DNA of 64,000 nucleotides from Bacillota bacterium (GTDB lineage: Bacteria > Bacillota_I > Bacilli_A > RF39 > UBA660), in assembly GCA_003524085.1 (NCBI GenBank), contig DOEC01000035.1, forward strand, positions 7,796-71,795. The letters are read 5' to 3'. The translations under genes and the position numbers were made by a program. The notes under the pieces were generated by a model, which was not told where the DNA came from, did no database searches, and saw nothing but the letters and a program-made list of their open reading frames with translations. Of the stretch, positions 3,305 through 48,862 are shown in pieces. How positions within the stretch are numbered: position 1 is the first letter of the stretch; the number at the start of each line of letters is the position of its first letter.

Positions 3305-3679
3305 ATGTATGTTTTAATGAGTATAAAGCCAAAATATGTAGAAAAAATACTAAGTGGAGAAAAGAAGTATGAATACAGAAAAACACTTTTAAAGAAAGAT
3401 GTAGAAAGTATACTTGTGTATTCAACCTCTCCAGTTAAAAAAGTAGTCTGTGAAATAAAACTACTTGAAGTAGTAAAAGGAACACTTGAGTATGTATACA
3501 GTAAAACCAATATAGAAGGTGGTATTACTTTAGAAGAATTTAATAGCTACTTCAAAAACAAAAATGTCGCCTATGCATACAAACTAGGAAGTATAAAAAA
3601 ATTAGACTTAACACTAAAAGAAATAGGCGTTCCAACTGCGCCTCAGTCATACCAATACATAGAAAGGATAGAATTATGA
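3305..3679 (+). CDS. ASCH (PUA-like) domain protein
   Basis: N-terminus MSIKPKYVEKILSGEKKYEYR matches the canonical ASCH start; TATAAT about 22 nt upstream; 4-nt ATGA overlap with next gene. Confidence 0.75.
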   Translation: MYVLMSIKPKYVEKILSGEKKYEYRKTLLKKDVESILVYSTSPVKKVVCEIKLLEVVKGTLEYVYSKTNIEGGITLEEFNSYFKNKNVAYAYKLGSIKKLDLTLKEIGVPTAPQSYQYIERIEL

Positions 3680-9406: not shown

Positions 9407-9414
9407 ACTAATAT

Positions 9415-9620
9415 AAGTTTTGTTGACAAAAGAGTAGTAATTAACATTTCTTTTATAGAGAGTTAGTGTTAGGTGCAAACTAACAAAGAAAGTTAATGAA
9501 CTTGCTTTTAGAAAAACTTCGCTAGTAAGCGTTATAACTATAAAGATGCATAATACTTTATGAATTAAGGTGGTACCGCTGTAGTTTGCAGTCCTTAAGT
9601 CATAAAGTTTATTTTTTTGA
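9415..9620 (+). promoter_or_regulatory. T-box riboswitch leader (Leu-tRNA sensing) upstream of leuS operon
   Basis: Stem I AGAGA element near 9466; conserved T-box sequence AATTAAGGTGGTACCGC at ~9563-9580; T-run terminator 9607-9617; CUU/CUC codons in the specifier region. Confidence 0.6.
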
Positions 9621-35037: not shown

Positions 35038-35124
35038 TAAAGTAGCCTTTTTATAGGTTGCTTTTTTCTTTATCTTTGTATATAATATTTACAGAAGATA
35101 TGAAACGAAAGGAGTATTTTATTC

Positions 35125-35270
35125 ATATTTAGCGCCAGAACCATAAGTGGTTGACGAGGTTAACAGTTATCGATTTTTCGGCGGATGCTGTTACGGATAA
35201 GTAGTTCGTTAGAAGTATTACAAAAAGTAAAATCAATATTACAACAAAATATACTTCATGCTAAATTTTT
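35125..35270 (+). ncRNA. glmS ribozyme (GlcN6P-sensing self-cleaving riboswitch)
   Basis: core AGCGCCAGAAC...GGTTGACGAGG...CGGCGGATG immediately upstream of glmS. Confidence 0.75.
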
Positions 35271-35288: not shown

Positions 35289-37034
35289 ATGTGTGGTATC
35301 ATTGGATACGTAGGAGAAAAGAGATGTAGTATAGATGTAATTATAGATGGGCTTAAGCACCTAGAATACAGGGGTTATGACAGTGCAGGTATAGCTTATG
35401 TTAAAGATAATAATGTTGTAATAGAAAGGGAAGTAGGTAGAATTAGTAATCTAGAGAGTGTTCTTAAAAAAGACACTTCTCATATAGGAATCGGGCATAC
35501 TAGATGGGCAACTCATGGTAAACCAACAAAAGAAAATGCTCATCCTCATAAGGTAGGCAATATTACTTTAGTACATAATGGAATTATTGATAATTTTATG
35601 GAGTTAAAAAGCACTCTAATGAGTGAAGGCTACACTTTCAAAAGTGACACAGATACTGAAGTAGCTGCTGCTTACATTGATTCTTTATATAAAGAAAATA
35701 ACGATATGATTAAGAGTTTAAGTATATGTGTTAATAAGTTTTTAGGTAGTTATGCTTTTGGCATTATTAATGAGTTAGAAACAGATGTATTATATGCTTT
35801 AAGAAAAGATAGTCCATTAATTATTGGTGTAGGAGAAAATGAAAACTTTATTGCAAGTGATGTGCCATCTATTTTAAAGTATACTAATAAGTATATTGAT
35901 ATAGAGAATGACGAAATAGTTAAAATAACAAAAGATAAAGTTACTGTATATGATAAGAATTGCAATATCATTAATAAAGAAATAAGCGTGTTTGAAGGGG
36001 ATGCTAATTTAGTAGAGAAGAATGGTTATGAGACATACATGCTTAAAGAAATACATGAAGAAGCAGAAGTTATAAAGAAGACTAGTGAAGCAAGTATTGA
36101 CTTTGATATAACAAAGTATGATGAAATAGATATAGTCGCTTGTGGAAGTGCTTATCACGCTGGACTAGTTGGTAAATACATGATAGAAAAACTATGTAAC
36201 ATAAAAGTGAATGTATGTATTGCAAGTGAATACCAATACGATAAACATTTTTATAAAGGTAAAACTTTAGTTATAGCAATAAGTCAAAGTGGGGAAACTG
36301 CAGACACAAAAAAATGTGTTAATATTGCAAATGATATGGGTGTTGATACTTTAGGAATTGTTAACGTTAAAGGAAGCAGTATTGCTAGAATATGTAAACA
36401 TGTTATATATACTTTAGCAGGTCCTGAAATAGCAGTGGCAACAACAAAAGCTTATCTAGCACAAATCACAACACTTATACTACTTGCAGTTAAAAATAGT
36501 AAAGAAAAAATAAATACTGAAGACTTGCAAAAACTACCTTATTATATAGAAACTCTAATTAACAAAGATTATACTTCTCTTGCAAATATGCTTTATACAA
36601 AAGACGACATCTACTTTATTGGTAGAGGAATAGATTATGCTCTTTGTATGGAAGGAAGTTTAAAACTAAAAGAAATTAGTTACATTCATAGTGAAGCTTA
36701 TGCAGCAGGAGAGTTAAAACACGGGACAATTTCATTAATTAGTGAAGGAACACCTGTTATAGTATTTGCAACAAGTGATGAGTTATACTTAAAAACAATA
36801 AGTAATGCTAAAGAAGTTAAAGCAAGAGGTGCTTATGTAATACTAGTAACTGATAAAGAAGTTATTAATGAAGGAGTTTATGACGAGTTAATTAGTATTC
36901 CTAAAGTAACTGAAGAATTAAGACCAATCTTAACAATTATACCTTTACAATTAATAAGTTATGAAGTTGCTAAGTTAAGAGATAATGATATTGATAAACC
37001 TAAGAATTTGGCTAAGAGTGTAACAGTGGAGTAA
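35289..37034 (+). CDS. glmS: glutamine--fructose-6-phosphate aminotransferase
   Basis: N-terminal MCGIIGYVG (Ntn Cys1), two SIS domains. Confidence 0.95.
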   Translation: MCGIIGYVGEKRCSIDVIIDGLKHLEYRGYDSAGIAYVKDNNVVIEREVGRISNLESVLKKDTSHIGIGHTRWATHGKPTKENAHPHKVGNITLVHNGIIDNFMELKSTLMSEGYTFKSDTDTEVAAAYIDSLYKENNDMIKSLSICVNKFLGSYAFGIINELETDVLYALRKDSPLIIGVGENENFIASDVPSILKYTNKYIDIENDEIVKITKDKVTVYDKNCNIINKEISVFEGDANLVEKNGYETYMLKEIHEEAEVIKKTSEASIDFDITKYDEIDIVACGSAYHAGLVGKYMIEKLCNIKVNVCIASEYQYDKHFYKGKTLVIAISQSGETADTKKCVNIANDMGVDTLGIVNVKGSSIARICKHVIYTLAGPEIAVATTKAYLAQITTLILLAVKNSKEKINTEDLQKLPYYIETLINKDYTSLANMLYTKDDIYFIGRGIDYALCMEGSLKLKEISYIHSEAYAAGELKHGTISLISEGTPVIVFATSDELYLKTISNAKEVKARGAYVILVTDKEVINEGVYDELISIPKVTEELRPILTIIPLQLISYEVAKLRDNDIDKPKNLAKSVTVE

Positions 37035-37037
37035 GCA

Positions 37038-37766
37038 ATGCTTAAACTCCTATTTAGTAAAGAATATATATTTTTATGGCTAATAGTTATCTTAATACCA
37101 ATTATCCAAAAGAAAGTAATAGGTTTCTTTGGTGAATTTTGGGTTAAACTAGAACTTAAAAAATTAAAGAAAGACTACAAAGTTTTAAATAACGTAATTA
37201 TAAGAACTATAGACAATTCCACTCATCAAATAGATCATATAGTAGTTTCTAAATATAGCATATTTGTAATAGAAACTAAGCAGATAAATGGGTATATTAA
37301 AGGTAACGATTACGACAAAAACTGGACTGTCAAAAGAGGAAAAAACACTTACTATATCAATAACCCAGTTCATCAAAACTATGGACATATAAAAGCTTTG
37401 TCTGAAGTCTTAGGAATAAACACAGATAAATTCATTTCAATTGTATGCATTTCTAGTCAAGCTAAAGTTAGAGTTAACTCAAAGTTTGTAGTTAGAATTT
37501 ATATGCTCGTTAAATATATTAAAAGTTATACAAACGAATTACTTTCAAATTATATAGAAGTGTATAACACTTTAGTTAGTAGAAATATTAAAGGCTACAC
37601 TAATTCTAGAATGCATGTTAAAAGCGTAAAAGAAATAAAGAAAGTAACAGCTAATGACCTAATTAAAAAATGCCCACTTTGCGGCGGAGAACTTGTTAAC
37701 AGACAAAGCAAGTATGGTAGTTTCATAGGCTGTTCTAATTACCCTAGATGCAAGTTCAAAAAGTAA
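37038..37766 (+). CDS. NERD-domain protein with C-terminal topoisomerase-type zinc ribbon
   Basis: NERD core HQIDHIVVSKYSIFVIETKQINGYIKG; CPLCGGELVNRQSKYGSFIGCSNYPRCKF. Confidence 0.75.
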   Translation: MLKLLFSKEYIFLWLIVILIPIIQKKVIGFFGEFWVKLELKKLKKDYKVLNNVIIRTIDNSTHQIDHIVVSKYSIFVIETKQINGYIKGNDYDKNWTVKRGKNTYYINNPVHQNYGHIKALSEVLGINTDKFISIVCISSQAKVRVNSKFVVRIYMLVKYIKSYTNELLSNYIEVYNTLVSRNIKGYTNSRMHVKSVKEIKKVTANDLIKKCPLCGGELVNRQSKYGSFIGCSNYPRCKFKK

Positions 37767-37770
37767 CCAG

Positions 37771-37796
37771 AAGTCTCTTTTCTTAGAGACTTTTTT
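37771..37796 (+). terminator. rho-independent terminator AAGTCTCT-loop-AGAGACTT + TTTT
   Basis: read directly from the sequence. Confidence 0.6.
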
Positions 37797-37863
37797 GAAT
37801 TAACTATAGGATTTTTAAGAAAAGTATAGTATAATATTAGACAAGAGAAGGTGGTTTATATTT

Positions 37864-38130
37864 ATGACTGCTATTATTTTTATAGGTTTCTTAATATTCT
37901 GTTATATTTTTAGAGACTCATATAAAAACAAGCAAGAACCAAAAGAAGAAAAGCCTAAAAAGAAAAACATATCTCCTTATTCTGAAGAAGAAATGGACAA
38001 GTACAACCTAGAAGAATGGCAAAAAGATTTAGTAAGAGAAGGAAGATTTGCACCTTGGAGTTTTAAAAAAAAATCAACTTATAGTGGAAAGTTAAGTGAC
38101 GGACAATATTATAAAGATGACGATGTTTAA
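37864..38130 (+). CDS. small protein with N-terminal TM and charged C-terminal tail
   Basis: RBS AAGGTGG; MTAIIFIGFLIFCYIF. Confidence 0.5.
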   Translation: MTAIIFIGFLIFCYIFRDSYKNKQEPKEEKPKKKNISPYSEEEMDKYNLEEWQKDLVREGRFAPWSFKKKSTYSGKLSDGQYYKDDDV

Positions 38131-38160
38131 TAGATAATTATATATGTGAGGTAAGTTAAA

Positions 38161-39054
38161 ATGATTATTAAAGATAATAGAAAATTAAGACAAAAAGATT
38201 TTAAAAATGAAAAAGAATTACAAACATACTTTGAAGAAAATCTAAATAAAATTTTAGGATACAAATTTGTAAAAACTGAATTTATAGTTGGAAATTATAG
38301 AATAGATTCTTTGGCATTTGATGAAGAAACTAAGGCATTCAGAATTATTGAGTATAAAAATGTTAAAAATCATAGTTTAGTAGATCAGGGCTATACTTAT
38401 TTAAAATTATTGTTAGAAAGAAAAGCCGATTTTGTGCTTAAATTTAATGAAGTATATAATTTAAATTATAAATTATCTGATATTGACTGGAGTCAGTCTA
38501 GAATAATATTCGTTTCGCCAACTTATACTGACTACCAGTTGAATGCTACTGATTTTAAAAATATACCTGTTGACTTAGTTAAAGTCACTAGATATGAAGA
38601 AAATATAGTTGACATAGAATTTATAAAAAAGACAAGTAATGTTAAGATAGATGAAATTAATGATAAACCCGCTCAAAAAGATGTTAATAAAGAAATTAAA
38701 GTATATACTGAAGAAGATCATTTATGTAACTTATCTGAAGAAATTAAAGCGATTTATGAAAATTTGAAAAATAAAATATTAGAACTTGATGACATTGATG
38801 TAGATGTGAAAAAATATTATATTGCATTCAAGGGAAGAAGAAATATAGTTGATATAGAATTCACTCAAAGCAAAATTAGAGTAGATATTAATATGAAAAA
38901 AGGGACTTTGAACGATCCTTTAAATATAACCAAAGATATTTCTAGTATTGGACATTGGGGTAATGGAGACTATAGAGTGGAGATAACAAAAGAAGAGGAA
39001 ATAGATAATGTTATTCCATTAATTAGACAGTCGCTAAAAGTAAATAAAAAATAA
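38161..39054 (+). CDS. NucS/DUF91-like PD-(D/E)xK nuclease-fold protein with C-terminal extension
   Basis: GNYRIDSLAFDEETKAFRIIEYK (D..E.K) preceded by the ELQTYFEENLNKILG pattern typical of RecB-like NucS C-terminal domain. Confidence 0.6.
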   Translation: MIIKDNRKLRQKDFKNEKELQTYFEENLNKILGYKFVKTEFIVGNYRIDSLAFDEETKAFRIIEYKNVKNHSLVDQGYTYLKLLLERKADFVLKFNEVYNLNYKLSDIDWSQSRIIFVSPTYTDYQLNATDFKNIPVDLVKVTRYEENIVDIEFIKKTSNVKIDEINDKPAQKDVNKEIKVYTEEDHLCNLSEEIKAIYENLKNKILELDDIDVDVKKYYIAFKGRRNIVDIEFTQSKIRVDINMKKGTLNDPLNITKDISSIGHWGNGDYRVEITKEEEIDNVIPLIRQSLKVNKK

Positions 39055-39070
39055 GGAAGGAATGATTAAA

Positions 39071-39220
39071 ATGAATAAGAAAAACGTACTAAATAAAATA
39101 CATGGGGGGGGGGTATTTAAATATATAAATATATCTAGTTTTTGTGTACCCTTTTTTGGAGTTAATAGGCAAAGCTGTGAAAATCTTTGTCTTTTTTGTG
39201 AGTTAAATGGAGAGATATAA
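39071..39220 (+). CDS. 49-codon upstream ORF whose TAA stop abuts the hsdM ATG (TAAATG); contains G10 tract and CxxxCxxC
   Basis: RBS AAGGAAGG; reading through GGGGGGGGGG as GGG run; ends ..SCENLCLFCELNGEI*. Confidence 0.3.
   Translation: MNKKNVLNKIHGGGVFKYINISSFCVPFFGVNRQSCENLCLFCELNGEI
39104..39113 (+). repeat. G10 homopolymeric tract (candidate slipped-strand phase-variation site)
   Basis: only long G/C homopolymer in the window, in a ~28% GC background. Confidence 0.6.
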
Positions 39221-40792
39221 ATGAATAATCAAAAAGAATTGGAAAGAAATGAGTTACATAAAACAATATGGAAGATGGCAGATGACTTACGTGGTTCTGT
39301 AGATGGATGGGATTTTAAACAATATGTTTTAGGTTTATTATTCTATAGATTTATATCCGAAAATTTAACTAGTTATTTAAATGAAGAAGAAAGAAAAGCA
39401 GGTAACCCTGATTTTGACTATACAAAACTAAGTGATGAAGAAGCTGAATATGGTAGAGAAGATACTCTAGCAGATAAAGGTTTTTATATATTACCTAGTG
39501 AATTATTCTGTAACTTAAGGAAAAGAGCAAGTGAAGATAAAGACTTAAATATTACATTAGGTAAAATACTTGATAACATAGAAAACTCGGCAAAAGGTAC
39601 GGCTTCTGAAGATGACATGAAAGGTTTATTTGATGACTTAGATTTTAATAGTAATAAACTTGGTAACATTGTTGATGATAGAAACACTAAAATTATTAAA
39701 ATGTTAAATGCAATAGGAGATTTAAAACTAGGAGACTATAAAGATAACACAATAGATACATTTGGAGATGCTTACGAATTTTTAATGACTATGTATGCTT
39801 CAAATGCTGGTAAATCAGGTGGAGAATTCTTTACTCCTCAAGAAGTAGGAGAATTACTTGCCAAAATAACTGTCATGGGTAAAACTGAAATAAATAAAGT
39901 ATATGATCCAGCATGTGGTTCAGGTTCACTACTACTTAAATTTGCTAAAGTACTTGGTAAAGACAATATAAAACAAGGTTTCTTTGGACAAGAAATAAAT
40001 ATAACAACATATAACCTTTGTAGAATAAATATGTTTTTACATGATATAAACTATAATAAATTTAGTATAGAACTAGGAGATACTTTACTTCATCCAGCAC
40101 ATGAAGAAGAGGAACCGTTTGACGCGATAGTATCAAATCCACCATATTCAATTAAATGGGCTGGTAAATCAAACCCACTTCTTATAAATGACCATAGATT
40201 TGCACCAGCAGGAATACTTGCGCCAGAGTCTAAAGCAGACCTTGCATTTACTATGCATATGCTATCTTATTTAAGTTCTAAAGGAACAGCAGCAATAGTT
40301 GAATTTCCAGGAGTACTTTATAGAGGTGGAGCAGAAGAAAAAATAAGAAAATACTTAGTTGATAACAACTTTATAGATACAGTCATACAACTACCTAGCG
40401 ACTTATTTTTTGGTACTTCAATAGCAACTTGCATAATAGTACTTAAAAAGAATAAACAAGATAATAACATTTTATTTATAGATGCTTCTAATGAATTTGT
40501 AAGAGGAAGTAATAAGAATAAACTATCCGATGAAAACATAGAAAACATACTAACACTTATTAAAAATAGAACTAATGAAGAAAATAAATCAGTACTAGTA
40601 ACATATGAAGAAATAAGTAACAATAGTTATAACTTGTCAGTTAACTCATATTTAAAAGTTACCTCTGATGAAGAAGAAATAGATATAGTAGAGTTAAATA
40701 AAAAGATAAAAGAAATAGTAGAAAAACAAGATAAAGTTAGGAAAGAATTAGACCAAATTATAGAAGAATTGGAGTCTGATAGTAATGAGTAA
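39221..40792 (+). CDS. hsdM: type I restriction-modification system, N6-adenine DNA methyltransferase subunit
   Basis: HsdM N-terminal domain (LRGSVDGWDFKQYVLGLLFYRFISE), SAM motif DPACGSGS, catalytic NPPY (SNPPYS). Confidence 0.9.
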   Translation: MNNQKELERNELHKTIWKMADDLRGSVDGWDFKQYVLGLLFYRFISENLTSYLNEEERKAGNPDFDYTKLSDEEAEYGREDTLADKGFYILPSELFCNLRKRASEDKDLNITLGKILDNIENSAKGTASEDDMKGLFDDLDFNSNKLGNIVDDRNTKIIKMLNAIGDLKLGDYKDNTIDTFGDAYEFLMTMYASNAGKSGGEFFTPQEVGELLAKITVMGKTEINKVYDPACGSGSLLLKFAKVLGKDNIKQGFFGQEINITTYNLCRINMFLHDINYNKFSIELGDTLLHPAHEEEEPFDAIVSNPPYSIKWAGKSNPLLINDHRFAPAGILAPESKADLAFTMHMLSYLSSKGTAAIVEFPGVLYRGGAEEKIRKYLVDNNFIDTVIQLPSDLFFGTSIATCIIVLKKNKQDNNILFIDASNEFVRGSNKNKLSDENIENILTLIKNRTNEENKSVLVTYEEISNNSYNLSVNSYLKVTSDEEEIDIVELNKKIKEIVEKQDKVRKELDQIIEELESDSNE

Positions 40793-42029
40793 GATAGAAG
40801 AGTTGATAAAAAAGTTATGTCCTAATGGAGTAGAGTATAAAGATTTAAATAGTGTTTTTAAACTTTTTTCTGGAATGAGAGACGTTTCAAATAAATGGAA
40901 AGAAACAGGAAATTGTCAATTTATAGATTATATGAATGCCTATAAAAACCAAAAAATTGATGTAACTAAATTACCTTATGCAACTGTAAAATCGTTAAAT
41001 CAAAACATATTAAAAAGAGGAGATTTGTTATTGACAAGTGCTTCTGAAGTAAGGGAAGAATGTGCAATATGTTCTGTAATAGAAAATGATATTGAAGACA
41101 ACATATTTATGGATGATCATTTATTCGGTTTAAGATTAAAAGATATGTATATAGACAAAATCAATACAACTTTTATAAGCTATTACTTGAATTCTGAACC
41201 ATTCAGATGTAATTTAAAGAAAGCAATACGAGGGGTTACTAGATTTTACATATCAAATGATAATTACTTAAAATTAAAAGTTCCAGTACCACCATTAGAA
41301 GTACAAGAAGAAATAGTAAGAATACTAGATAAGTTTGGAGAGTTGGAGACAGAGTTAGAGGCAGAGTTAGAGGCAAGGAAGAGTCAGTATGAGTTTTGGC
41401 GTGGCAAATTATTAAATAACAATGCGAGTAAAATAGTAAAGCTTGGAGAAGTTTGCCTTGTTAGTTCAGGTGGTACACCTTCTAAAAAAAAGACAGAGTA
41501 TTGGGAAAATGGAGATATAAAATGGCTTGGATCTTCAGTATGTTGTAACAAAAAAACAGTAGAAGAGGTAACAGATAAAATTACAGAGGTAGGATTAAAA
41601 AATTCATCAGCAAAAATTTTAACTCCTAAAACTACCCTTATAGCGATGGTTGGCGCAACAATAGGAAAAGTTGCTTTTCTTGAATTTGAAGCATGTACAA
41701 ACCAAAATGTTGCCAGCTTAATTCCAAAAGATACATCATTTCTTAATTCGGACTATTTATTTTATGCATGTAGAAACCTATATTCACAATTTGTTGAATA
41801 TTCAAAAGGAAAATTTTCAATTGCTAGTCTTGGATATATTAAAAATTTAGAAATAAAAGTACCTTCATTACAAGAACAAGAAAGAATAGTTAACATACTT
41901 GATAAATTTGATAAACTAGTTAATGATATTTCAGAAGGTTTACCTGCTGAAATAGAAGCAAGAAGAAAACAATACGAGTATTATAGAAATAAACTTTTAA
42001 GTTTTGAGGAGTTGGTTGTTAATGAGTAA
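40785..42029 (+). CDS. hsdS: type I R-M specificity subunit
   Basis: two TRDs separated by conserved central helix LEVQEEIVRILDKF..ELEAELEARKSQYEFWRGKLL and C-terminal repeat of same. Confidence 0.9.
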   Translation: MSKIEELIKKLCPNGVEYKDLNSVFKLFSGMRDVSNKWKETGNCQFIDYMNAYKNQKIDVTKLPYATVKSLNQNILKRGDLLLTSASEVREECAICSVIENDIEDNIFMDDHLFGLRLKDMYIDKINTTFISYYLNSEPFRCNLKKAIRGVTRFYISNDNYLKLKVPVPPLEVQEEIVRILDKFGELETELEAELEARKSQYEFWRGKLLNNNASKIVKLGEVCLVSSGGTPSKKKTEYWENGDIKWLGSSVCCNKKTVEEVTDKITEVGLKNSSAKILTPKTTLIAMVGATIGKVAFLEFEACTNQNVASLIPKDTSFLNSDYLFYACRNLYSQFVEYSKGKFSIASLGYIKNLEIKVPSLQEQERIVNILDKFDKLVNDISEGLPAEIEARRKQYEYYRNKLLSFEELVVNE

Positions 42030-43164
42030 ATTCAACTCAGTTGAAGAAGTAAAGAATGAATTAATAAGAATACTTAACAAGGTTGTTAAAGATAAGAAAA
42101 GTGGAAAAGAAAAAATTAATGTTGTGTTACTTTATGCCTTTAATGGAACAGGCAAAACTAGAATTTCCGAATTAATAACTGAAGAGGAAGAAAATAAGTG
42201 TTTATTTTATAACGCATATGTTGAAGACTACTTTACTTGGAATAATAGAGAAAAAGAATTTCTAATTGATATGAATGCTGATTTATTTAGAATAATAAGA
42301 ACTCAAGAATTAGAAAATGATATTATAGATAATTTTAAAAGCTTAGTTGAAACTAAACTAGAGCCTGTATTTGATATACCAGACGCAAAAATCACATTTC
42401 AACTAGCAACAGGAGACTCTAATTCTACACAAAATGTAAAGATATCTAAAGGCGAAGAAAGTATGTTTATATGGTCTGTATTTTACTCAATATTAAACTT
42501 ATCTTTAGAAATGTTAGATGAAGAGTTGGAAAATAGAAGTTGCGAAGATTTTAATTTACTAAGATATATAATTGTTGATGACCCAGTATCTTCAATAGAT
42601 GATACTAAAATCATTGCAATTGTTGATCAATTTACAGAATACTTAAATAGATTAAAAAATGTTGATATTAAAAATGATAATAAGTTAAGTATTTTAATTA
42701 CCACACATCATCCATTATTTTTTAATATAATGCAAAATTACTTTAAAAATAAATCAAATGATAAGTTTAATGCAGAATATTATGTACTAATGAGAGGTGA
42801 AAATAATACTTTAGAACTTAATGAACAAAGAGGGGACTCCCCATTCGCTTATCATTTATCACTTATAGAAGAACTTGTTACAGTAGTCAATGAAGATAAT
42901 ATAAAGAAGTATCATTATAATATTTTAAGAAGTTTATTTGAAAAGACTTCAAACTACTTAGGTTATACCAACTGGGCTGACTGTATTAGTGATGAAGAAG
43001 ATAAGAGTTTAATTATTAAAGAGGTTAATCAAAATAGTCATAATAGATTATCTGACATTGAATATTGTGAGTTATCAGAAGAAGATAAAGAGTTATTTAA
43101 GAGAGTGTTTAAAAGATTTTTAGAGGATTTTAACTGGAAGTCAAAAGAAAAAGTTAAGGAGTAA
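42022..43164 (+). CDS. prrC: PrrC-like anticodon nuclease (ABC-type ATPase head + C-terminal ACNase motif) embedded in the type I R-M operon
   Basis: Walker A AFNGTGKT; ABC signature ISKGEESMF; Walker B/D-loop IIVDDPVSSIDD; H-loop ITTHH; C-terminal R-x3-E...(33 aa)...H (LRSLFE ... QNSHN) matching PrrC R320/E324/H356 spacing; position between hsdS and hsdR. Confidence 0.65.
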   Translation: MSKFNSVEEVKNELIRILNKVVKDKKSGKEKINVVLLYAFNGTGKTRISELITEEEENKCLFYNAYVEDYFTWNNREKEFLIDMNADLFRIIRTQELENDIIDNFKSLVETKLEPVFDIPDAKITFQLATGDSNSTQNVKISKGEESMFIWSVFYSILNLSLEMLDEELENRSCEDFNLLRYIIVDDPVSSIDDTKIIAIVDQFTEYLNRLKNVDIKNDNKLSILITTHHPLFFNIMQNYFKNKSNDKFNAEYYVLMRGENNTLELNEQRGDSPFAYHLSLIEELVTVVNEDNIKKYHYNILRSLFEKTSNYLGYTNWADCISDEEDKSLIIKEVNQNSHNRLSDIEYCELSEEDKELFKRVFKRFLEDFNWKSKEKVKE

Positions 43165-43170
43165 TGTGTA

Positions 43171-43803
43171 ATGAAAAAAAGTAAAATAATGATATTTTGT
43201 TTGTTAGTTTTTTCTATAATTTGTTTAATAATCTATGTAATATTAGCGTTATGTGTTTCTTGTCCAATTGTTGAAACTATAGTTCTAGGCCTTTTAACTA
43301 GTGCAGTAGTTACACTTTTTGTATCTGTTTTAGACTATTGTTGTTTCAGAGATGAAGAGATACAAAAGTTTAAATTAGAAATAAGTAAATACTTTTGTTA
43401 TTTGATGGACTTTAAAAAAGACATTAATGATATATTAGTTATGTTTGATAAAAGACAACATATTAAAGTCGAAGATTATGTAAAAAGTAACATTAACACT
43501 TTAAAATATTTGTGTGTAGGTAAACCACAATTCTTATCTTTTGATTTTATACTCAAAGATAAGAACTTTACAAAGACAACTAATTACTTATATGATTTAA
43601 CATTTGGAACTAAACTAATTGAAATTTATAATAAGAAAAAAATTATAACATTAGAAGGGTATAAAAGTTATCTAAACGATTTATTAAAAGAAATTAATAA
43701 AGAAGTAGATACAATTAATAATGAGATGAAGAATATTAAGAAGTTTAAGATCGCTAAGGAATGGGAAAAATTTACTGAAAGAGAAAATGTATTTGGGAGT
43801 TGA
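43171..43803 (+). CDS. 2-TM membrane protein of unknown function between prrC-like gene and hsdR
   Basis: MKKSKIMIFCLLVFSIICLIIYVILAL and second helix; no recognizable domain. Confidence 0.55.
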   Translation: MKKSKIMIFCLLVFSIICLIIYVILALCVSCPIVETIVLGLLTSAVVTLFVSVLDYCCFRDEEIQKFKLEISKYFCYLMDFKKDINDILVMFDKRQHIKVEDYVKSNINTLKYLCVGKPQFLSFDFILKDKNFTKTTNYLYDLTFGTKLIEIYNKKKIITLEGYKSYLNDLLKEINKEVDTINNEMKNIKKFKIAKEWEKFTERENVFGS

Positions 43804-43809
43804 TAATTA

Positions 43810-46800
43810 ATGGTTAATATAATAAGTGAAAGTGATAACTATACAGTAGTTACTGAGTATAAAGGTTTAGAAAAGAAAAGTGGTACTTATCAAAGTGAAG
43901 ATGCTTTAGAAAAAGAATTAATTAAAACATTAATGGAACAAGGTTATGAGTATTTAACTTTTAATAGTGAAAGTGAATTAATTAGTAATTTAAGAGATAA
44001 ACTTGGTAAACTTAATAATCATGTGTTTAGCGATAATGAGTGGAATAATTTATTTAATAATGTAATAGCTAATAAGAATAATCATATACTTGAGAAAACT
44101 AAGATAATTCAAGAAGATTATAAACAGCCTTTAAGACTTGATAATGGAGAGTTAATTAATGTTTATTTAATAGATAAAGATAATATACATAATAATTGTC
44201 TACAAGTAATTAATCAGTATGAAAATAATGATGGTAATCATGAAAATAGGTATGATGTAACTATACTAGTAAATGGTTTACCTTTAGTACATATTGAACT
44301 TAAAAGAAGAGGAATAGACTTAAGAGAAGCATTTAATCAAATAGATAGATATCAAAGAGACTCATTCTGGGCTGGAAGTGGTTTATATGAATATATTCAA
44401 ATATTTATTATAAGTAATGGAACATATACTAAGTATTATTCTAATACTACAAGAGATTTACACTTGAAAACAGGTACTAAGAAAACTTCTAATACATTTG
44501 AATTTACTTCTTATTGGTCAGACCAAAATAATAATTCAATTATTGATTTAATAGATTTTGCTAAAACTTTCTTAGCAAAACATACTATCTTAAATGTACT
44601 TTGTAAGTACTGTGTATTTTCAACTGATGGCACTCTTTTAGTTATGAGACCTTATCAAATAGTTGCTACTGAAAAGATTATTAATAAAATAGAAATATCT
44701 CATAATTATAAATTATATGGAAGTATTAAATCAGGTGGATATATTTGGCATACTACAGGTAGTGGTAAAACACTTACAAGTTTTAAAACAAGTCAACTTG
44801 CTAGTAAGTTAAGTTTTATTGATAAAGTTGTATTTGTTGTTGATAGAAAAGACTTAGACTATCAAACAATGAAAGAGTATGATAAATTTAAAGAAGGATG
44901 CGCTAATAGTAACTCTAATACTAAAATACTAGAGTCTCAACTAGCTGATAATGATTCTAAAATAATAATAACTACTATACAAAAATTAACTAATTATATA
45001 AAGAAATTTCCTAAACATAATGCATTTGATAAACAAGTAGTATTTATATTTGATGAATGTCATAGAAGTCAATTTGGAGATATGCACAAAGCTATTATAT
45101 CTAAGTTTAAGTATTACTATATATTTGGTTTTACTGGTACTCCTATATTTAAAGAAAACGCTATAACTAGAAAAAGTATAGTCTTAACAACTGAGCAAGT
45201 ATTTGGAGAAAAACTACATACTTATACTATTGTAAATGCTATAAATGATAAAAATGTATTACCTTTTAGATATGAGTTTGTAGAAAATATTGGTAGAAAA
45301 AGTGATATAGAAGATGAAATGGGTTTTAAAATTGATAAAAATAGAGTATTTAATAACCCAGTTAGAATAGAACAAATAACTAAGTATATTATCAATAACT
45401 TTGCTAGAAAAACTAAAAATAATGAAACTTATTTATTTAGTACTTTAGATAATGTTAAAGAAGTTGCTAAAGATAATAACGCTGTTGAAGTTAAGAAAAA
45501 GTATTATGTAAATGGATTTAATTCAATATTTGCTACTTCTTCAATTGAAGCTGCTAAAAAGTACTATGAATGTTTTAAAAATATACCTAACAATTTGAAA
45601 GTCGCTTTAATATATAGTTATGGTGTTAATGATGAAGTTATCACTTGCTTTGATGATGAAAACTCTGAGTCTGCGGAAAATCTAAGTAAAAGTGATAGAG
45701 ATTATTTAGACTATGCCATTAAAGACTATAATAAAATGTTTGGAACTACTTATGATACATCTAATGAAAAATTTCAAAACTATTATAAAGATGTTTCTCT
45801 TAGAATGAAGAATAGAGAAATAGACATTTTAATTGTTGCTAATATGTTTTTAACTGGTTTTGACGCTAAGACATTAAATACTTTATGGGTTGATAAAAAT
45901 CTTAATTATCACGGACTTATTCAAGCATTCTCTAGAACTAATAGAATACTTAATTCTGTTAAAACATTTGGTAATATAGTATGTTTTAGAGATTTGGAAA
46001 AGGAACTTAATGATGCATTAGGTTTATTTGGAGATGCTGAAGCGTCTAGCATCGTTTTGTTAAAACCGTATGAAGACTATTTAAATGGCTATGATGATGG
46101 TAAACATAGTTTTGTAGGTTATATAACTTTAGTTAATGAACTTAAAAGTAAGTTTAATCCAGGTGAACTAATAGTTGGAGAGAGTAAACAAATTGAGTTT
46201 ATCAAGTTATTTGGACAAATATTAAAAGCTAGAAATATTCTTTCTACTTTTGATAAGTTTAGTAATGATGATATATTAGACGCTAGAGACGAACAAAATT
46301 ATAGAAGTACATATATTGAACTAAATAGTCAGTATAAACAGAGAATGAAAGCAGATAAACTTGATGTTAGTAATGATATAGTCTTTGAAATGGAATTAGT
46401 TAAACAAATAGAAGTTAATGTTGACTATATTTTAAATTTAATTAAAGAGTATCATGATGGTAATATGGAAAATAAAGAGTTATTGATTACTATTAATAGA
46501 ATGGTTATGTCCAGTCCTGACTTAAGAAATAAGGTTGACTTAATTGATGAGTTTATTAGAAGTTTGAATAAAGATAGTAATGTATATAATGACTTTAATT
46601 CTTTTATGAATAGTAAAAAGAAAGAAGAGTTAGACAAAATAATTTCAGAAGAGAACTTGGATAAAGAGAAAACTTATGTCTTCGTAAAAAGAAGTTTTGA
46701 AAACGGAAGAGTAGAAACTAATGGTACAGAACTATCATCTATATTACCAGCAATGAGTAGGTTTGAAGCAGATAAAAAAAGAACAAAGAAGAAAGAGAGT

Positions 46801-46863
46801 GTTGTTGAGAAGCTAATTGGTTTCTTTGATAAATTCTTTAGTATTAGTAATTCAGAATTTTAG
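43810..46863 (+). CDS. hsdR: type I restriction enzyme R subunit
   Basis: N-terminal nuclease ILVNGLPLVHIELK; SF2 motifs HTTGSGKT, DECHRSQ; 1017 aa. Confidence 0.9.
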   Translation: MVNIISESDNYTVVTEYKGLEKKSGTYQSEDALEKELIKTLMEQGYEYLTFNSESELISNLRDKLGKLNNHVFSDNEWNNLFNNVIANKNNHILEKTKIIQEDYKQPLRLDNGELINVYLIDKDNIHNNCLQVINQYENNDGNHENRYDVTILVNGLPLVHIELKRRGIDLREAFNQIDRYQRDSFWAGSGLYEYIQIFIISNGTYTKYYSNTTRDLHLKTGTKKTSNTFEFTSYWSDQNNNSIIDLIDFAKTFLAKHTILNVLCKYCVFSTDGTLLVMRPYQIVATEKIINKIEISHNYKLYGSIKSGGYIWHTTGSGKTLTSFKTSQLASKLSFIDKVVFVVDRKDLDYQTMKEYDKFKEGCANSNSNTKILESQLADNDSKIIITTIQKLTNYIKKFPKHNAFDKQVVFIFDECHRSQFGDMHKAIISKFKYYYIFGFTGTPIFKENAITRKSIVLTTEQVFGEKLHTYTIVNAINDKNVLPFRYEFVENIGRKSDIEDEMGFKIDKNRVFNNPVRIEQITKYIINNFARKTKNNETYLFSTLDNVKEVAKDNNAVEVKKKYYVNGFNSIFATSSIEAAKKYYECFKNIPNNLKVALIYSYGVNDEVITCFDDENSESAENLSKSDRDYLDYAIKDYNKMFGTTYDTSNEKFQNYYKDVSLRMKNREIDILIVANMFLTGFDAKTLNTLWVDKNLNYHGLIQAFSRTNRILNSVKTFGNIVCFRDLEKELNDALGLFGDAEASSIVLLKPYEDYLNGYDDGKHSFVGYITLVNELKSKFNPGELIVGESKQIEFIKLFGQILKARNILSTFDKFSNDDILDARDEQNYRSTYIELNSQYKQRMKADKLDVSNDIVFEMELVKQIEVNVDYILNLIKEYHDGNMENKELLITINRMVMSSPDLRNKVDLIDEFIRSLNKDSNVYNDFNSFMNSKKKEELDKIISEENLDKEKTYVFVKRSFENGRVETNGTELSSILPAMSRFEADKKRTKKKESVVEKLIGFFDKFFSISNSEF

Positions 46864-47172
46864 TAATGTGAGAAGTCTATTGTTTAATAGATTTCTTTTT
46901 TTATACTTTAACAAAAATTTTATAATCTTCAGTAGATAATTGACACAAGTTTATCATCTTGTTATAATTTAGTTGCTATGGATAGTATACTATGAAGAAA
47001 AACACCGTTGTTGGTAAGGCATTGTGCCAATTGTAAAAGAAGAAAATAGTGAATATTTTACAAAAGGAGAAAAAGAGGGTGTTCTTGAAACATTATCTTT
47101 CTGTCCAGTTTATGATAATGAAATTGATGATGAACGTATGGATAAATTTTTCTATATAAAGGAGTGATTTAA

Positions 47173-47811
47173 ATGTCAAAGTATAAGTTATTATTAGATG
47201 AGTCAGGTTCTTTTGAAAATAAAGACGAAAAATATGTAATAATAGGTGGGGTTCTCTTTAAAGAAGAATATCAACCTGAACTTGAAAAGATTTTTGTTCC
47301 ATTGCATACTCACTTACGTAATGTTTTAAAATGCACTGAGTTACATGCTACTAGAAATAAAGAACTTTTTGATTATTTGGCTCCTATTTTGGGAGCTTGT
47401 GAATACATAACTCCTATCGTTTTTGTTATTGACAAAAAGAGTAGCTTTATTTTTGATAATTATGATCATAAAAGTTTTAAATATAATAAAGCAATTCAAC
47501 ATTTAATTAAAAAAATGATTAAGAATGGATTAGTCAATAATGATGATGAACTATATATAAAAATAGATAACATTAATCTAAATAGAGATGAAACTGATAA
47601 TTTAACAAATTGGTTGCCAAAAAATATGAGTATTGTTAAAGAGGTAAAACAAGGTGACTCTAGAGATTATATTGCTTTGCAGCTTGCTGATATAATTGTT
47701 AATAATTTTAGTAAAAAAACAACTTGTAAACTAAATTCAGTAAGAGTAAAAATGTTATCTCCAAAGATTTATTGTTTTTTAAATAAAACTGTAAAAGAGT
47801 ATTTTATATAA
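47173..47811 (+). CDS. DUF3800-family protein
   Basis: N-terminal LLLDESGSF...GGVLF and C-terminal QLADI motifs. Confidence 0.65.
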   Translation: MSKYKLLLDESGSFENKDEKYVIIGGVLFKEEYQPELEKIFVPLHTHLRNVLKCTELHATRNKELFDYLAPILGACEYITPIVFVIDKKSSFIFDNYDHKSFKYNKAIQHLIKKMIKNGLVNNDDELYIKIDNINLNRDETDNLTNWLPKNMSIVKEVKQGDSRDYIALQLADIIVNNFSKKTTCKLNSVRVKMLSPKIYCFLNKTVKEYFI

Positions 47812-47869
47812 CTATTGCTTTGTTTTTGATGAATTAAGTGTTATAATTATCTTACATTCAGGAGGTTAT

Positions 47870-48592
47870 ATGAGAAATGAAGTGCAAGAAATATATATAA
47901 ATTTAGATGATTCTGGTAAATTAAGTTCTAAAGAAGACATTAGTGTGTATGGCGGTGTCGTATTTTTAAGTAAAAAAGAGAAAGATAAATTTATAACTCA
48001 GTATAAAAAGATTATAAATGAGGTCAAGTGTGAATACTGCAAGATATGTAATCACGCCTGTCCTGAGATTAAAAATACAAATATTAAGCCAGAACATAAG
48101 CGTTGGTTAATGAATTACATTAAAAATTATTTTGTAGTTGGGTTAATAATTGAAAATAAAAAGGTGTATGAAGAAATATTACAAAGTAAGGCATCAAAAG
48201 GAAGATTTACTGATTATGCTATTCGTAGGCTTATTAAAGAAATATTAAAGTCACTAATTAAAGAAGGCAAAATCGATCCATATAAGCCTGTTAAGATTGT
48301 ATTAAATATAGACCAACAAAGTACAAAAAGTAATGGATATTATAATTTACGTGATGGTATATTAGAAGAGCTTAAATATGGAATATCTGCCTACAATTAT
48401 TCTGTTAAGAGAAAGAAAATAGTTTACTCTGATTTAGATATTTTAGTTACTTATCAAGTATCTGCTAAGAGTTATGTTATTCAAGCAGCTGATTTACTAG
48501 CAGGTACAATAAGAAGAACTGTACTTGACAACATTGAAAACTATGGAAGAGCTTTATCAAAATTTGTGGACTTAAAAATAAAACTTCCATAA
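47870..48592 (+). CDS. DUF3800-family protein (paralog of preceding gene)
   Basis: LDDSGKL...GGVVF and IQAADLLAG motifs. Confidence 0.65.
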   Translation: MRNEVQEIYINLDDSGKLSSKEDISVYGGVVFLSKKEKDKFITQYKKIINEVKCEYCKICNHACPEIKNTNIKPEHKRWLMNYIKNYFVVGLIIENKKVYEEILQSKASKGRFTDYAIRRLIKEILKSLIKEGKIDPYKPVKIVLNIDQQSTKSNGYYNLRDGILEELKYGISAYNYSVKRKKIVYSDLDILVTYQVSAKSYVIQAADLLAGTIRRTVLDNIENYGRALSKFVDLKIKLP

Positions 48593-48595
48593 AAG

Positions 48596-48620
48596 AAAAA
48601 AAGCCATTACTGGCTTTTTC
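48596..48620 (+). terminator. rho-independent terminator AAAAAGCCA-TTAC-TGGCTTTTT
   Basis: read directly from the sequence. Confidence 0.6.
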
Positions 48621-48862
48621 CCAATTAGGGCGGCGTACTTAGAATTACGCTTAAATATAAATATTCGCGACCTAACTATCGACCTGACGAGATTTCTCTC
48701 CGGTAATACAATAATACACTATTTTTATTAAAATGTCAAACATAATTTGACATTGTGTCAAGAAAACAGTTACATTTTGTATTATTGTATATAAATATTA
48801 TATGCGTTATATGCCTAATTATACTTTATTAAAAAAGTAAATATATAATGTTTATATCAATA

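What the first reader, a model, noticed from the sequence alone, without database searches (positions are those of the whole stretch)
39071..39223. G10 homopolymer inside a short upstream ORF translationally coupled to hsdM: candidate phase-variation switch for the type I R-M system
A 49-codon ORF with its own SD reads through GGGGGGGGGG (39104-39113) as Gly codons and terminates with TAA directly abutting the hsdM ATG (..ATATAAATG). A run of ten G in a ~28% GC genome is highly non-random and is the classic substrate for slipped-strand mispairing. A +/-1 change would truncate the upstream ORF early and is expected to change coupled initiation at hsdM, toggling R-M (and possibly PrrC) activity. 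The uORF also ends with a CxxxCxxC motif (SCENLCLFC), so it may alternatively be the relic of a radical-SAM gene displaced by R-M insertion.
Basis: partly seen in the sequence, partly recalled or inferred. Interest (0 to 1): 0.6.

Follow-up and report, generated by a model that had tools for sequence, protein, structure and literature searches.

The report
Phase-variable leader ORF gating defence genes
A run of ten G's inside a tiny leader gene just upstream of a restriction-modification operon changes length between otherwise identical gut-bacterial genomes, and most likely acts as a random on/off switch for the defence genes by deciding whether ribosomes read through a terminator-like hairpin.

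Summary
G10 (39104-39113) is the only G or C run of 6 or more in the 64 kb window (about 3e-4 expected). It lies in a 49-codon ORF with its own SD, and the ORF's TAA abuts the hsdM ATG.

Near-identical loci from other human-gut metagenomes (2 substitutions in 7.5 kb) differ only at this tract, carrying G9, G10 or G12. Across four strain lineages of a "Clostridium sp. CAG:628"-like species, 35 neutrally sampled intact tracts read G8 x1, G9 x11, G10 x21, G11 x1 and G12 x1.

In every lineage one frame keeps the leader ORF open to the next gene's start. In the window, the other two frames stop 2-5 codons after the tract. The leader's 3' half holds a hairpin followed by a U-run. The hairpin's structure is conserved through compensatory changes, and in a relative it scores as an intrinsic terminator.

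This matches the leader-peptide/repeat/terminator switch shown experimentally for Streptococcus gallolyticus pil1. Here it uses a homopolymer and gates defence genes: type I R-M plus PrrC in the window, BREX or an SNF2/methylase system in relatives.

The radical-SAM-relic idea is rejected. Effects on expression are inferred, not measured.

The parts
39055..39061 (+). Shine-Dalgarno-like GGAAGGA of the leader ORF, 9 nt upstream of ATG 39071
   Evidence: Read directly from the sequence. Sister lineages carry GAGGAGG or GGAG at the equivalent place.
39071..39220 (+). Leader ORF: 49 codons plus TAA. An alternative in-frame ATG lies at 39062.
   Evidence: Called as a gene in independent assemblies. 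It stays open to the next start codon in five sequence variants, where shuffles give P(any frame open) of 0.09-0.19 each.
39104..39113 (+). G10 hypermutable tract, read as Gly codons
   Evidence: Only G or C run of 6 or more in the window. Its length varies from 7 to 12 in near-identical loci, and it is the only internal indel site in 7.5 kb.
39118..39128 (+). Out-of-frame stops just after the tract: TAA 39118-39120 (used with G11 or G8) and TAA 39126-39128 (used with G9 or G12)
   Evidence: Equivalent stops are conserved in lineages B, C and D.
39167..39198 (+). Terminator-like element: hairpin 39167-39176 / 39183-39192 (AGGCAAAGCU...AUCUUUGUCU, -7.0 kcal/mol) followed by T6 at 39193-39198
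   Evidence: It is positionally equivalent to a hairpin that scores as an intrinsic terminator in L008. In the structure count 93% of cells are paired and 5 of 10 pairs change on both sides.
39209..39214 (+). hsdM Shine-Dalgarno GGAGAG, inside the 3' end of the leader ORF
   Evidence: Other strains carry GGGGAG or GGGGGA.
39218..39223 (+). Leader stop TAA directly abutting the hsdM ATG
   Evidence: The variants have a 0-1 nt gap, or a 4 or 8 nt overlap.
39221..46863 (+). Gated operon: hsdM 39221-40792, hsdS 40785-42029, prrC 42022-43164, 210-aa ORF 43171-43803, hsdR 43810-46863
   Evidence: Pfam. PADLOC gives PrrC at E 2e-93. The genes overlap or lie 6 nt apart. No site matching 11 or more of 12 promoter positions on the + strand lies inside the operon, and the next strong promoter is at 46940.
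37864..39054 (+). Upstream context: conserved 88-aa ORF (37864-38130) and PDC-S18/DUF5655 gene (38161-39054), which ends 16 nt before the leader ATG
   Evidence: No terminator lies between them and the leader.

Best explanation
The G10 tract is a slipped-strand contingency locus inside a short leader ORF that gates the downstream defence operon (hsdM-hsdS-prrC-210aa-hsdR).

- ON state (G10, also G7 or G13): ribosomes starting at ATG 39071 translate all 49 codons. They pass over the hairpin and U-run at 39167-39198 and stop at TAA 39218-39220, right at the hsdM ATG. Passing ribosomes keep the terminator-like hairpin from forming, so transcription continues. They also deliver ribosomes to the hsdM start, giving termination-reinitiation coupling.
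- OFF state (G9, G11 or G12): the leader stops at 39118-39128, which is 38-46 nt upstream of the hairpin. The hairpin then forms, most transcripts end at the U-run, and coupling is lost, so the operon is off or low.

What is shown: the tract length polymorphism, the frame consequences, conservation of the open frame, the stop/start junction, and the hairpin plus U-run.

What is inferred: that the hairpin terminates transcription, that the leader is translated, and which state is ON.
For: 1. Hypermutability. The tract is the only internal indel site among 7.5-kb loci that differ by 2 substitutions. A9, A8 and A7 runs in the same stretch never vary.
2. Length spectrum. The 35 neutrally sampled intact tracts in four lineages read G8 x1, G9 x11, G10 x21, G11 x1 and G12 x1.
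3. Persistence. The tract persists while its flanks diverge. In lineage D the in-frame length is G9, because the upstream coding sequence is one base longer.
4. Open frame. In variants A, A', A'', B, C, D and E, one frame keeps the leader open to within -8 to +1 nt of the next start codon.
5. Terminator. L008 has one terminator-like site in 1.2 kb. It lies inside the leader, 22 nt before the next ATG, at -11.1 kcal/mol with z -2.7.
6. Conserved structure. The window's hairpin sits at the same place before the same U-run. Its sequence differs but its pairing is kept: 93% paired against 42-53% when the partners are slid, 5 of 10 pairs changed on both sides, and 0 of 500 shuffles reached the covariation score.
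7. No room for another promoter. No space exists between the hairpin and the downstream SD, and no site matching 11 or more of 12 promoter positions lies in the operon.
8. Experimental precedent with the same geometry. In S. gallolyticus pil1 the short leader ends 39 bp before the terminator and gives low expression. The long leader ends in or after the terminator and gives high expression (PMC3894217).
Against: - The window's hairpin is weak (-7.0 kcal/mol) and no better than shuffles (z -0.7). The terminator scan did not flag it.
- The compensatory changes amount to essentially one split, lineage A against B/C/E, among only six sequences.
- hsdM has its own good SD, so translation could proceed without coupling.
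- No convincing promoter was found just upstream of the window's leader.
- The leader peptide shows mostly non-synonymous change, so translation is inferred from ORF maintenance only.
- In lineage E the commonest length (G10) is the early-stop frame for the start codon that has an SD.
- Length differences come from assembly consensus sequences, not reads. G homopolymers are error-prone on Illumina instruments.
Confidence: 0.55

Rival explanations
1. Pure translational coupling. Tract length only changes whether ribosomes terminate at the hsdM ATG and reinitiate. The hairpin plays no part in transcription.
For: The stop/start junction is conserved in all variants, with a 0-1 nt gap or a 4 or 8 nt overlap. 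The window's hairpin is weak.
Against: - hsdM and the 193-aa ORF of relatives carry good SDs of their own (GGAGAG, GGAGG), so they should initiate independently.
- This reading does not explain why a hairpin plus U-run is kept by compensatory change at the same place.
Confidence: 0.2
2. The tract is hypermutable but has no regulatory effect, or much of the apparent polymorphism is assembly or sequencing error at a G homopolymer.
For: - All length data come from short-read assembly consensus sequences.
- One assembly (L119, 3x coverage) has an obvious A30-G16 artefact at this site.
- No expression data exist.
Against: - A long G tract is kept in a 27% GC genome across lineages whose flanks have diverged and recombined. 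That argues for selection, because neutral tracts decay, as seen only rarely here (L118, L125, L127).
- About half of the independent assemblies, made by different assemblers, differ at this site.
- A8 and A9 runs nearby never differ.
- The frame architecture around the tract is non-random.
Confidence: 0.1
3. The tract acts at the level of transcription initiation. It would either set promoter spacing or lie at the transcription start of a promoter inside the leader, where RNA polymerase can slip and add extra bases at a homopolymer.
For: Hexamers resembling a -10 box (TAAAAT, AATAAT, ATAAAT) lie 4-8 nt upstream of the tract in lineages A/B, D and E. This mechanism is known for other poly-G and poly-C loci (own knowledge).
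Against: - The promoter scan finds no two-hexamer site on the + strand that spans or adjoins the tract.
- Hexamers like these are common by chance in 27% GC DNA.
- This reading does not explain the maintained ORF, the out-of-frame stops or the stop/start junction.
Confidence: 0.07
4. The 49-aa peptide is itself the functional product, for example a small regulator or membrane peptide, and it is this peptide that is switched on and off.
For: The N-terminal 14 codons and a GGG[VI][FY]xYLxI ... FC pattern recur among the variants.
Against: - The C-terminal two thirds change mostly by non-synonymous substitutions and indels. Roughly 8 non-synonymous against 1 synonymous change separate A from A' by hand count on the sequences.
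- There is no family hit in Pfam, PADLOC or NCBIfam.
- Only 7 clusters exist among 5.8 billion proteins, all from this species.
Confidence: 0.05
5. The ORF is the relic of a radical-SAM gene (CxxxCxxC) displaced when the R-M system inserted.
For: CENLCLFC is present in the window.
Against: - There is no Pfam hit.
- The first Cys is Tyr in L103 and L117, and the motif is absent in leader types B, C, D and E.
- The genes after hsdR are DUF3800, not the rest of a radical-SAM enzyme.
- The ORF's history is that of a leader shared with strains lacking the motif.
Confidence: 0.01

Closest known systems
Streptococcus gallolyticus pil1 (and pil3) leader-peptide switch: GCAGA repeats plus a premature terminator (Danne et al. 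2014, PMC3894217)
   Same: - A simple repeat lies inside a short leader ORF that has its own RBS.
- Repeat slippage changes where the leader stops.
- A stem-loop with a U-run lies between the repeat and the regulated gene.
- Short leaders stop about 39 bp before the hairpin, against 38-46 nt here. Long leaders stop after it.
- The outcome is stochastic on/off heterogeneity.
   Different: - The repeat is a G homopolymer, not a pentanucleotide.
- The regulated genes are defence systems, not pili.
- The long leader ends exactly at the next start codon, which adds coupling.
- In the window only one of three frames gives the long leader.
- The window's hairpin is much weaker (-7 against -18.7 kcal/mol).
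- Nothing has been tested experimentally here.
SSR phase-variable type I R-M systems (repeats inside hsdM, hsdS or hsdR; Atack et al. 2019, PMC7383803)
   Same: A type I hsd operon sits next to a mononucleotide tract of 9 or more bases whose length varies between strains. The expected result is on/off methylation and restriction.
   Different: The tract is not inside any hsd ORF. The cited survey, which scored only repeats within hsd ORFs, would miss it. The whole operon including PrrC would switch, rather than one subunit.
Leader-ORF attenuators in which translation blocks a terminator, such as E. coli pyrBI (own knowledge)
   Same: The terminator hairpin lies inside the leader ORF. A ribosome following RNA polymerase prevents termination.
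   Different: The input is a heritable frameshift, not nucleotide supply or ribosome stalling.
E. coli prr locus: EcoprrI type I R-M with the PrrC anticodon nuclease (own knowledge)
   Same: prrC sits between hsdS and hsdR. PADLOC matches PrrC at E 2e-93.
   Different: An extra 210-aa ORF follows prrC. The upstream phase-variable leader is not known for prr.
Phase-variable Pgl/BREX, with a G tract in pglX of Streptomyces coelicolor (own knowledge)
   Same: A G tract switches a BREX-type defence system. The sister strain L121 has this leader ahead of brxA-brxB-brxC.
   Different: In Pgl the tract lies inside the methylase gene. Here it lies in an upstream leader.

Membership tests
Leader-peptide SSR attenuator (S. 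gallolyticus pil1 type) | Short leader ORF with its own RBS and ATG upstream of the regulated operon | tested here: met
   GGAAGGA lies 9 nt before ATG 39071. Relatives have GAGGAGG or GGAG. The ORF is maintained in 5 or more variants.
Leader-peptide SSR attenuator (S. gallolyticus pil1 type) | Simple repeat inside the leader ORF, with a unit length not divisible by 3 and variable copy number | tested here: met
   G10 lies at codons 12-15. Lengths 7-12 are seen in near-identical loci.
Leader-peptide SSR attenuator (S. gallolyticus pil1 type) | Stem-loop terminator between the repeat and the regulated gene | tested here: inconclusive
   - The hairpin at 39167-39192 is followed by T6.
- It is structurally conserved with compensatory changes, and its homologue in L008 is flagged as a terminator.
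- In the window it is only -7.0 kcal/mol, z -0.7, and not flagged.
- Termination has not been measured.
Leader-peptide SSR attenuator (S. gallolyticus pil1 type) | Frames differ in whether the leader stops well upstream of the hairpin, or within or after it | tested here: met
   G9, G11 and G12 stop at 39118-39128, which is 38-46 nt before the hairpin. G10 stops at 39218-39220, which is 26 nt after it.
Leader-peptide SSR attenuator (S. gallolyticus pil1 type) | Promoter upstream of the leader | tested here: inconclusive
   The window has only a weak 9-of-12 site at 39024-39052, which would cut into the SD. Lineage E has a 10-of-12 site with a TG extension just upstream of its leader. The window's leader may be read from upstream genes.
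Leader-peptide SSR attenuator (S. gallolyticus pil1 type) | Expression of the downstream operon depends on leader translation and repeat number | not testable with these tools
   Needs reporters, RT-qPCR or methylome data.
SSR phase-variable type I R-M (criteria of PMC7383803) | Mononucleotide tract of at least 9 bases | tested here: met
   G10. Criterion quoted.
SSR phase-variable type I R-M (criteria of PMC7383803) | Repeat located within the hsdM, hsdS or hsdR ORF, so that slippage frameshifts that gene | tested here: not met
   The tract lies 108 nt upstream of the hsdM ATG in a separate ORF. No G or C run of 6 or more lies in any hsd gene.
Type I R-M with PrrC (prr-type locus) | hsdM, hsdS and hsdR present, with prrC between hsdS and hsdR | tested here: met
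   Pfam finds N6_Mtase with HsdM_N, Methylase_S, and HSDR_N with SWI2_SNF2 and EcoR124_C. PADLOC finds PrrC at 2e-93.
Radical-SAM enzyme (relic) | Radical_SAM domain match and a conserved CxxxCxxC motif | tested here: not met
   No Pfam hit. The motif is not conserved among the leader variants.

The most novel reading that the evidence does not exclude
A portable hypermutable gate sits at the entrance of a defence-island hotspot next to glmS. A single G tract in a leader ORF, acting through a translation-sensitive terminator, stochastically switches whichever immune cassette lies downstream. That cassette is type I R-M with PrrC in the window, and BREX or an SNF2/DUF4391/methylase system in sister strains. 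This would give an uncultured human-gut species population-level bet-hedging of whole defence systems. It would be the first leader-peptide SSR attenuator outside streptococcal pili and the first controlling anti-phage defence.
Probability: 0.45. Interest if true: 0.75.

Novelty: new variant of a known kind. Interest (0 to 1): 0.6.

Why it matters
- Known phase-variable R-M systems, and surveys built on REBASE, look for repeats inside the hsd or mod genes. This locus shows that a whole defence operon can be placed under a mutational switch located outside those genes, so such switches are probably under-counted.
- If the mechanism holds, it extends a leader-peptide/terminator switch known from one streptococcal pilus system to anti-phage immunity in an abundant but uncultured gut commensal.
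- It would link defence-island cassette exchange to a fixed, reusable regulatory gate.
- It gives a testable explanation for strain-level and within-host heterogeneity in methylomes and phage susceptibility in gut metagenomes.

Tried and rejected
- Radical-SAM relic: no Pfam hit, the motif is not conserved, and the downstream genes are DUF3800.
- Sigma-70-type promoter spanning the tract: none on the + strand in the window, L008 or L123.
- Strong RNA structure of the whole leader, or sequestration of the hsdM SD: the fold is no better than shuffles (z +1.35). Only a weak U-rich/GGAGA pairing appears.
- G tract pairing with CCCUUUUUU (39149-39157): seen in the lowest-energy fold, but specific to lineage A and not significant.
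- Known RNA family over the leader: none.
- Plasmid collection: no relevant match.
- Leader peptide family: only 7 clusters, all from this species, with no domain.
- Upstream regions of 80 more distant hsdM loci: no homologous leader. Other G and C tracts there are unrelated, for example the L037 C10A8.
- Function of the 193-aa ORF that follows the leader in most strains: a confident all-helical model (pLDDT 80), but no significant PDB fold match and no family hit.
- Fusion of the leader to the downstream gene in another frame: excluded by early stops in both other frames.
- NCBI taxonomy look-up of the closest genome name failed.
Full report
**1. The observation**

The sequence is as described.
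- G10 occupies 39104-39113.
- It lies in an ORF that starts at ATG 39071 (an in-frame ATG also sits at 39062). GGAAGGA lies 9 nt upstream.
- The ORF reads the tract as Gly codons and ends with TAA 39218-39220.
- The hsdM ATG (39221) follows directly, in the same frame.

The tract is the only G or C run of 6 or more in the 64-kb window, which is 27% GC. About 3-4e-4 such runs are expected. No ORF of 30 aa or more covers it on the other strand.

Pfam and PADLOC confirm the gene order:
- glmS 35289-37034
- a NERD protein 37038-37766
- an 88-aa ORF 37864-38130
- PDC-S18/DUF5655 38161-39054
- the leader
- hsdM 39221-40792
- hsdS 40785-42029
- PrrC 42022-43164 (E 2e-93)
- a 210-aa ORF 43171-43803
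- hsdR 43810-46863

**2. The tract is hypermutable**

Looking up the exact HsdM protein returned near-identical loci from human-gut metagenomes. Their tracts are G9 (L001, L007), G10 (L002, L004, L005, L006) and G12 (L003).

Over 7.5 kb the window differs from L001, L003 and L004 by only 2 substitutions. The only internal indels are in the G tract. An A9 run, an A8 run and four A7 runs in the same stretch never vary.

A metagenome scan for AATAAAATACATG(7 or more) added 11 homologous loci, six with G10 and five with G9.

Searches seeded with the leader peptide also found three unusual cases:
- a G7 allele, which is in frame (L117);
- one decayed tract of the same length (L118, AGGGGTGAGA);
- one low-coverage A30-G16 artefact (L119).

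**3. Organism and sister lineages**

The closest genome is 'Clostridium sp. CAG:628'. Its HsdM is 97% identical, and the core flanks are about 95-97% identical at the DNA level. The loci below are therefore strains of one species complex of uncultured gut bacteria. Five arrangements share the leader.

| Lineage | Loci | Arrangement |
|---|---|---|
| A | window | PDC-S18 - leader - hsdM |
| B | L008, L094, L097, L100, L105, L120-122 | about 100-aa ORF (75% identical to the window's 88-aa ORF; overlaps the leader ATG by 8 nt) - leader - TAAgATG - 193-aa ORF - payload |
| C | L106 | glmS - 88-aa ORF - leader - 193-aa ORF |
| D | L133-L140 | different leader N-terminus (MNNNIVQNNVQW...); 193-aa ORF only 62% identical; the 105 nt after the tract are identical to B |
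| E | L123-L132 | leader placed ahead of the 88-aa homologue |

The payload behind the leader differs between strains:
- type I R-M with PrrC;
- BrxA-BrxB-BrxC (L121; PADLOC E 8e-46 and 5e-58);
- an SNF2/HKD helicase, DUF4391 and an N6_N4 methylase (L133-L140).

The tract is polymorphic in every lineage.
- D: G9 x3, G10 x4, G8 x1.
- E: G10 x6, G11 x1, G9 x1, and two interrupted tracts.

Counting only loci found without reference to the leader frame, and excluding the window itself, the 35 intact tracts are G8 x1, G9 x11, G10 x21, G11 x1 and G12 x1.

A long G tract that persists while both flanks diverge and recombine points to selection for mutability.

**4. Frame logic**

In the window, G10 (also G7 or G13) gives the full 49-aa leader, which ends at the hsdM ATG. 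G11 stops at TAA 39118-39120. G9 and G12 stop at TAA 39126-39128.

The same holds in the other variants. One frame stays open to the next start codon, with these junctions:
- TAA|ATG in A;
- an 8-nt overlap in A' and A'';
- TAAnATG in B, C and D;
- ATGA in E.

In lineage D the in-frame length is G9, because the upstream coding sequence is one base longer.

Composition shuffles give an open frame reaching the next start in only 9-19% of trials per variant.

The peptide itself is poorly conserved. Roughly 8 non-synonymous against 1 synonymous change separate A from A' (hand count on the sequences), and there are also indels. Only 7 protein clusters exist, and none has a family match. The act of translating the leader, rather than its product, therefore seems to matter.

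**5. A hairpin plus U-run inside the leader**

In L008 the only terminator-like site in 1.2 kb is AGATGGGATAAGTTTATTCCATCT followed by TTTTGTGTGG. It lies inside the leader ORF, 22 nt before the next ATG. Its energy is -11.1 kcal/mol, and 1 of 200 shuffles folds as well. Lineages C and E carry variants of it.

Aligning the leaders shows that lineage A is collinear with lineage C. At the same place the window has AGGCAAAGCU-GUGAAA-AUCUUUGUCU (39167-39192) followed by U6 (39193-39198). The sequence differs but the shape is the same.

On a structure-consistent alignment of the six distinct versions:
- 93% of cells pair, against 42-53% when the partners are slid;
- 5 of 10 pairs change on both sides;
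- 0 of 500 shuffles reach the covariation score.

Three caveats apply. There are only six sequences. The double changes mostly reflect a single split, lineage A against the rest. Taken alone, the window's hairpin is weak (-7.0 kcal/mol, z -0.7).

There is no room for a promoter between the hairpin and the downstream SD. No site matching 11 or more of 12 promoter positions on the + strand lies in the hsd operon. A perfect 12-of-12 promoter appears only after hsdR, at 46940. Downstream genes must therefore be transcribed through this element.

**6. Mechanism**

The best-supported reading is a phase-variable leader-ORF attenuator combined with coupling.
- In the in-frame state, ribosomes cross the hairpin and stop at the next start codon. 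The hairpin cannot form, transcription continues and ribosomes reinitiate.
- In the out-of-frame states, ribosomes stop 38-46 nt upstream of the hairpin. The hairpin forms and most transcripts end.

This geometry matches the switch demonstrated experimentally for S. gallolyticus pil1. There, GCAGA repeats in a leader peptide decide whether the leader stops 39 bp before a premature terminator (low expression) or within or after it (high expression) (PMC3894217).

What is shown here: the polymorphism, the frame consequences, ORF maintenance, the junction, and the conserved hairpin plus U-run. What is inferred: that termination occurs at the hairpin, that the leader is translated, and that G10 is the ON state.

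Lineage E adds two details.
- A 10-of-12 promoter with a TG extension lies just upstream of its leader.
- One of its out-of-frame states stops inside the hairpin loop, which should also be permissive. Its commonest length, G10, is the early-stop frame.

**7. Rivals**

- Pure translational coupling is possible. It does not explain the conserved hairpin, and the downstream genes have their own SDs.
- A promoter or initiation role has no positive support.
- Assembly error cannot be excluded for any single locus. It does not explain conservation of the tract, the frame architecture, or the invariance of nearby A runs.
- A functional peptide is unlikely.
- The radical-SAM relic is rejected.

**8. 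Comparison with what is known**

Phase-variable type I R-M systems are well known. However, the systematic survey defines them by repeats inside hsd ORFs, with 9 or more bases for mononucleotide tracts (PMC7383803). This locus fails that defining feature while probably having the same outcome.

It meets the sequence-level features of the pil1-type switch, except that terminator function and the promoter are unproven.

Literature searches found no report of a repeat-in-leader attenuator controlling R-M, BREX or other defence systems. The held library is incomplete.

I rate it a new variant of a known kind, with interest 0.6.

Noticed in passing
window 37038-48711; L121, L133-L140, L123-L132, L106: The stretch downstream of glmS is a defence-island hotspot with a mosaic history. 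NERD, PDC-S18, the 193-aa ORF and the payload (type I R-M with PrrC, BREX, or SNF2/DUF4391/methylase) come and go between strains that are about 95-97% identical in the flanks.
   Followed up: partly
L133 3887-4000 versus L008 5297-5401: The 105 nt after the tract are identical between lineages B and D, although the adjacent 193-aa genes are only 62% identical and the leader N-termini differ. This suggests recombination breakpoints at or near the tract.
   Followed up: no
L123 3536-3700: In lineage E two ATGs lie in different frames ahead of the tract, at 3536 (with an SD) and 3574 (without). Different tract lengths therefore open the long frame from different starts. One out-of-frame state stops inside the hairpin loop.
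   Followed up: partly
L123 3696-3990: The homologue of the 88-aa ORF in lineage E is split into 56-aa and 46-aa pieces around an A-rich run (GAGAAAAAAAAGAAAAAG). This may be a second slippery site or a pseudogene.
   Followed up: no
L007 2930-4072 (window about 42022-43164): In one gut sample prrC is called as two ORFs (157 and 217 aa), although the locus differs from the window by a single substitution. This looks like a nonsense-inactivated PrrC, and the locus also carries G9.
   Followed up: partly
L118 1014-1172; L125 and L127 about 3584: Some tracts are decayed or interrupted (AGGGGTGAGA, GAGGGGGG, GGAGGGGGGG). In L118 the tract keeps the 10-nt, in-frame length, so these look like locked alleles.
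   Followed up: partly
L119 936-1100: The leader reads ATG-A30-G16 in a 3x-coverage SPAdes contig. This is almost certainly a low-complexity assembly artefact, and a caution about homopolymers in assemblies.
   Followed up: no
L008 5402-5983 (absent from the window): A conserved 193-aa ORF follows the leader in most strains and is present in hundreds of contigs. Its model is a confident all-helical bundle (pLDDT 80), with no family hit and no significant PDB fold match.
   Followed up: yes
window 35120-35267; 9414-9599: A glmS ribozyme lies upstream of glmS and a T-box leader lies at 9414-9599. Both are typical of Bacillota.
   Followed up: no
window 46940-46968 and 47173-48711: A perfect TTGACA-17-TATAAT promoter with a TG extension follows hsdR. 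After it come two DUF3800 genes, then a DUF3800-I RNA motif on the minus strand (48587-48711) with its own promoter-like and terminator-like sites.
   Followed up: no
window 43171-43803: A 210-aa ORF of unknown function is wedged between prrC and hsdR. It is conserved in all the type I loci seen here and is not part of the classical prr locus.
   Followed up: no
L093, L099, L102 (G10); L037 1883-1899 (C10A8): G or C homopolymers occur in unrelated contexts in other metagenomic organisms. They are not homologous to this leader.
   Followed up: partly
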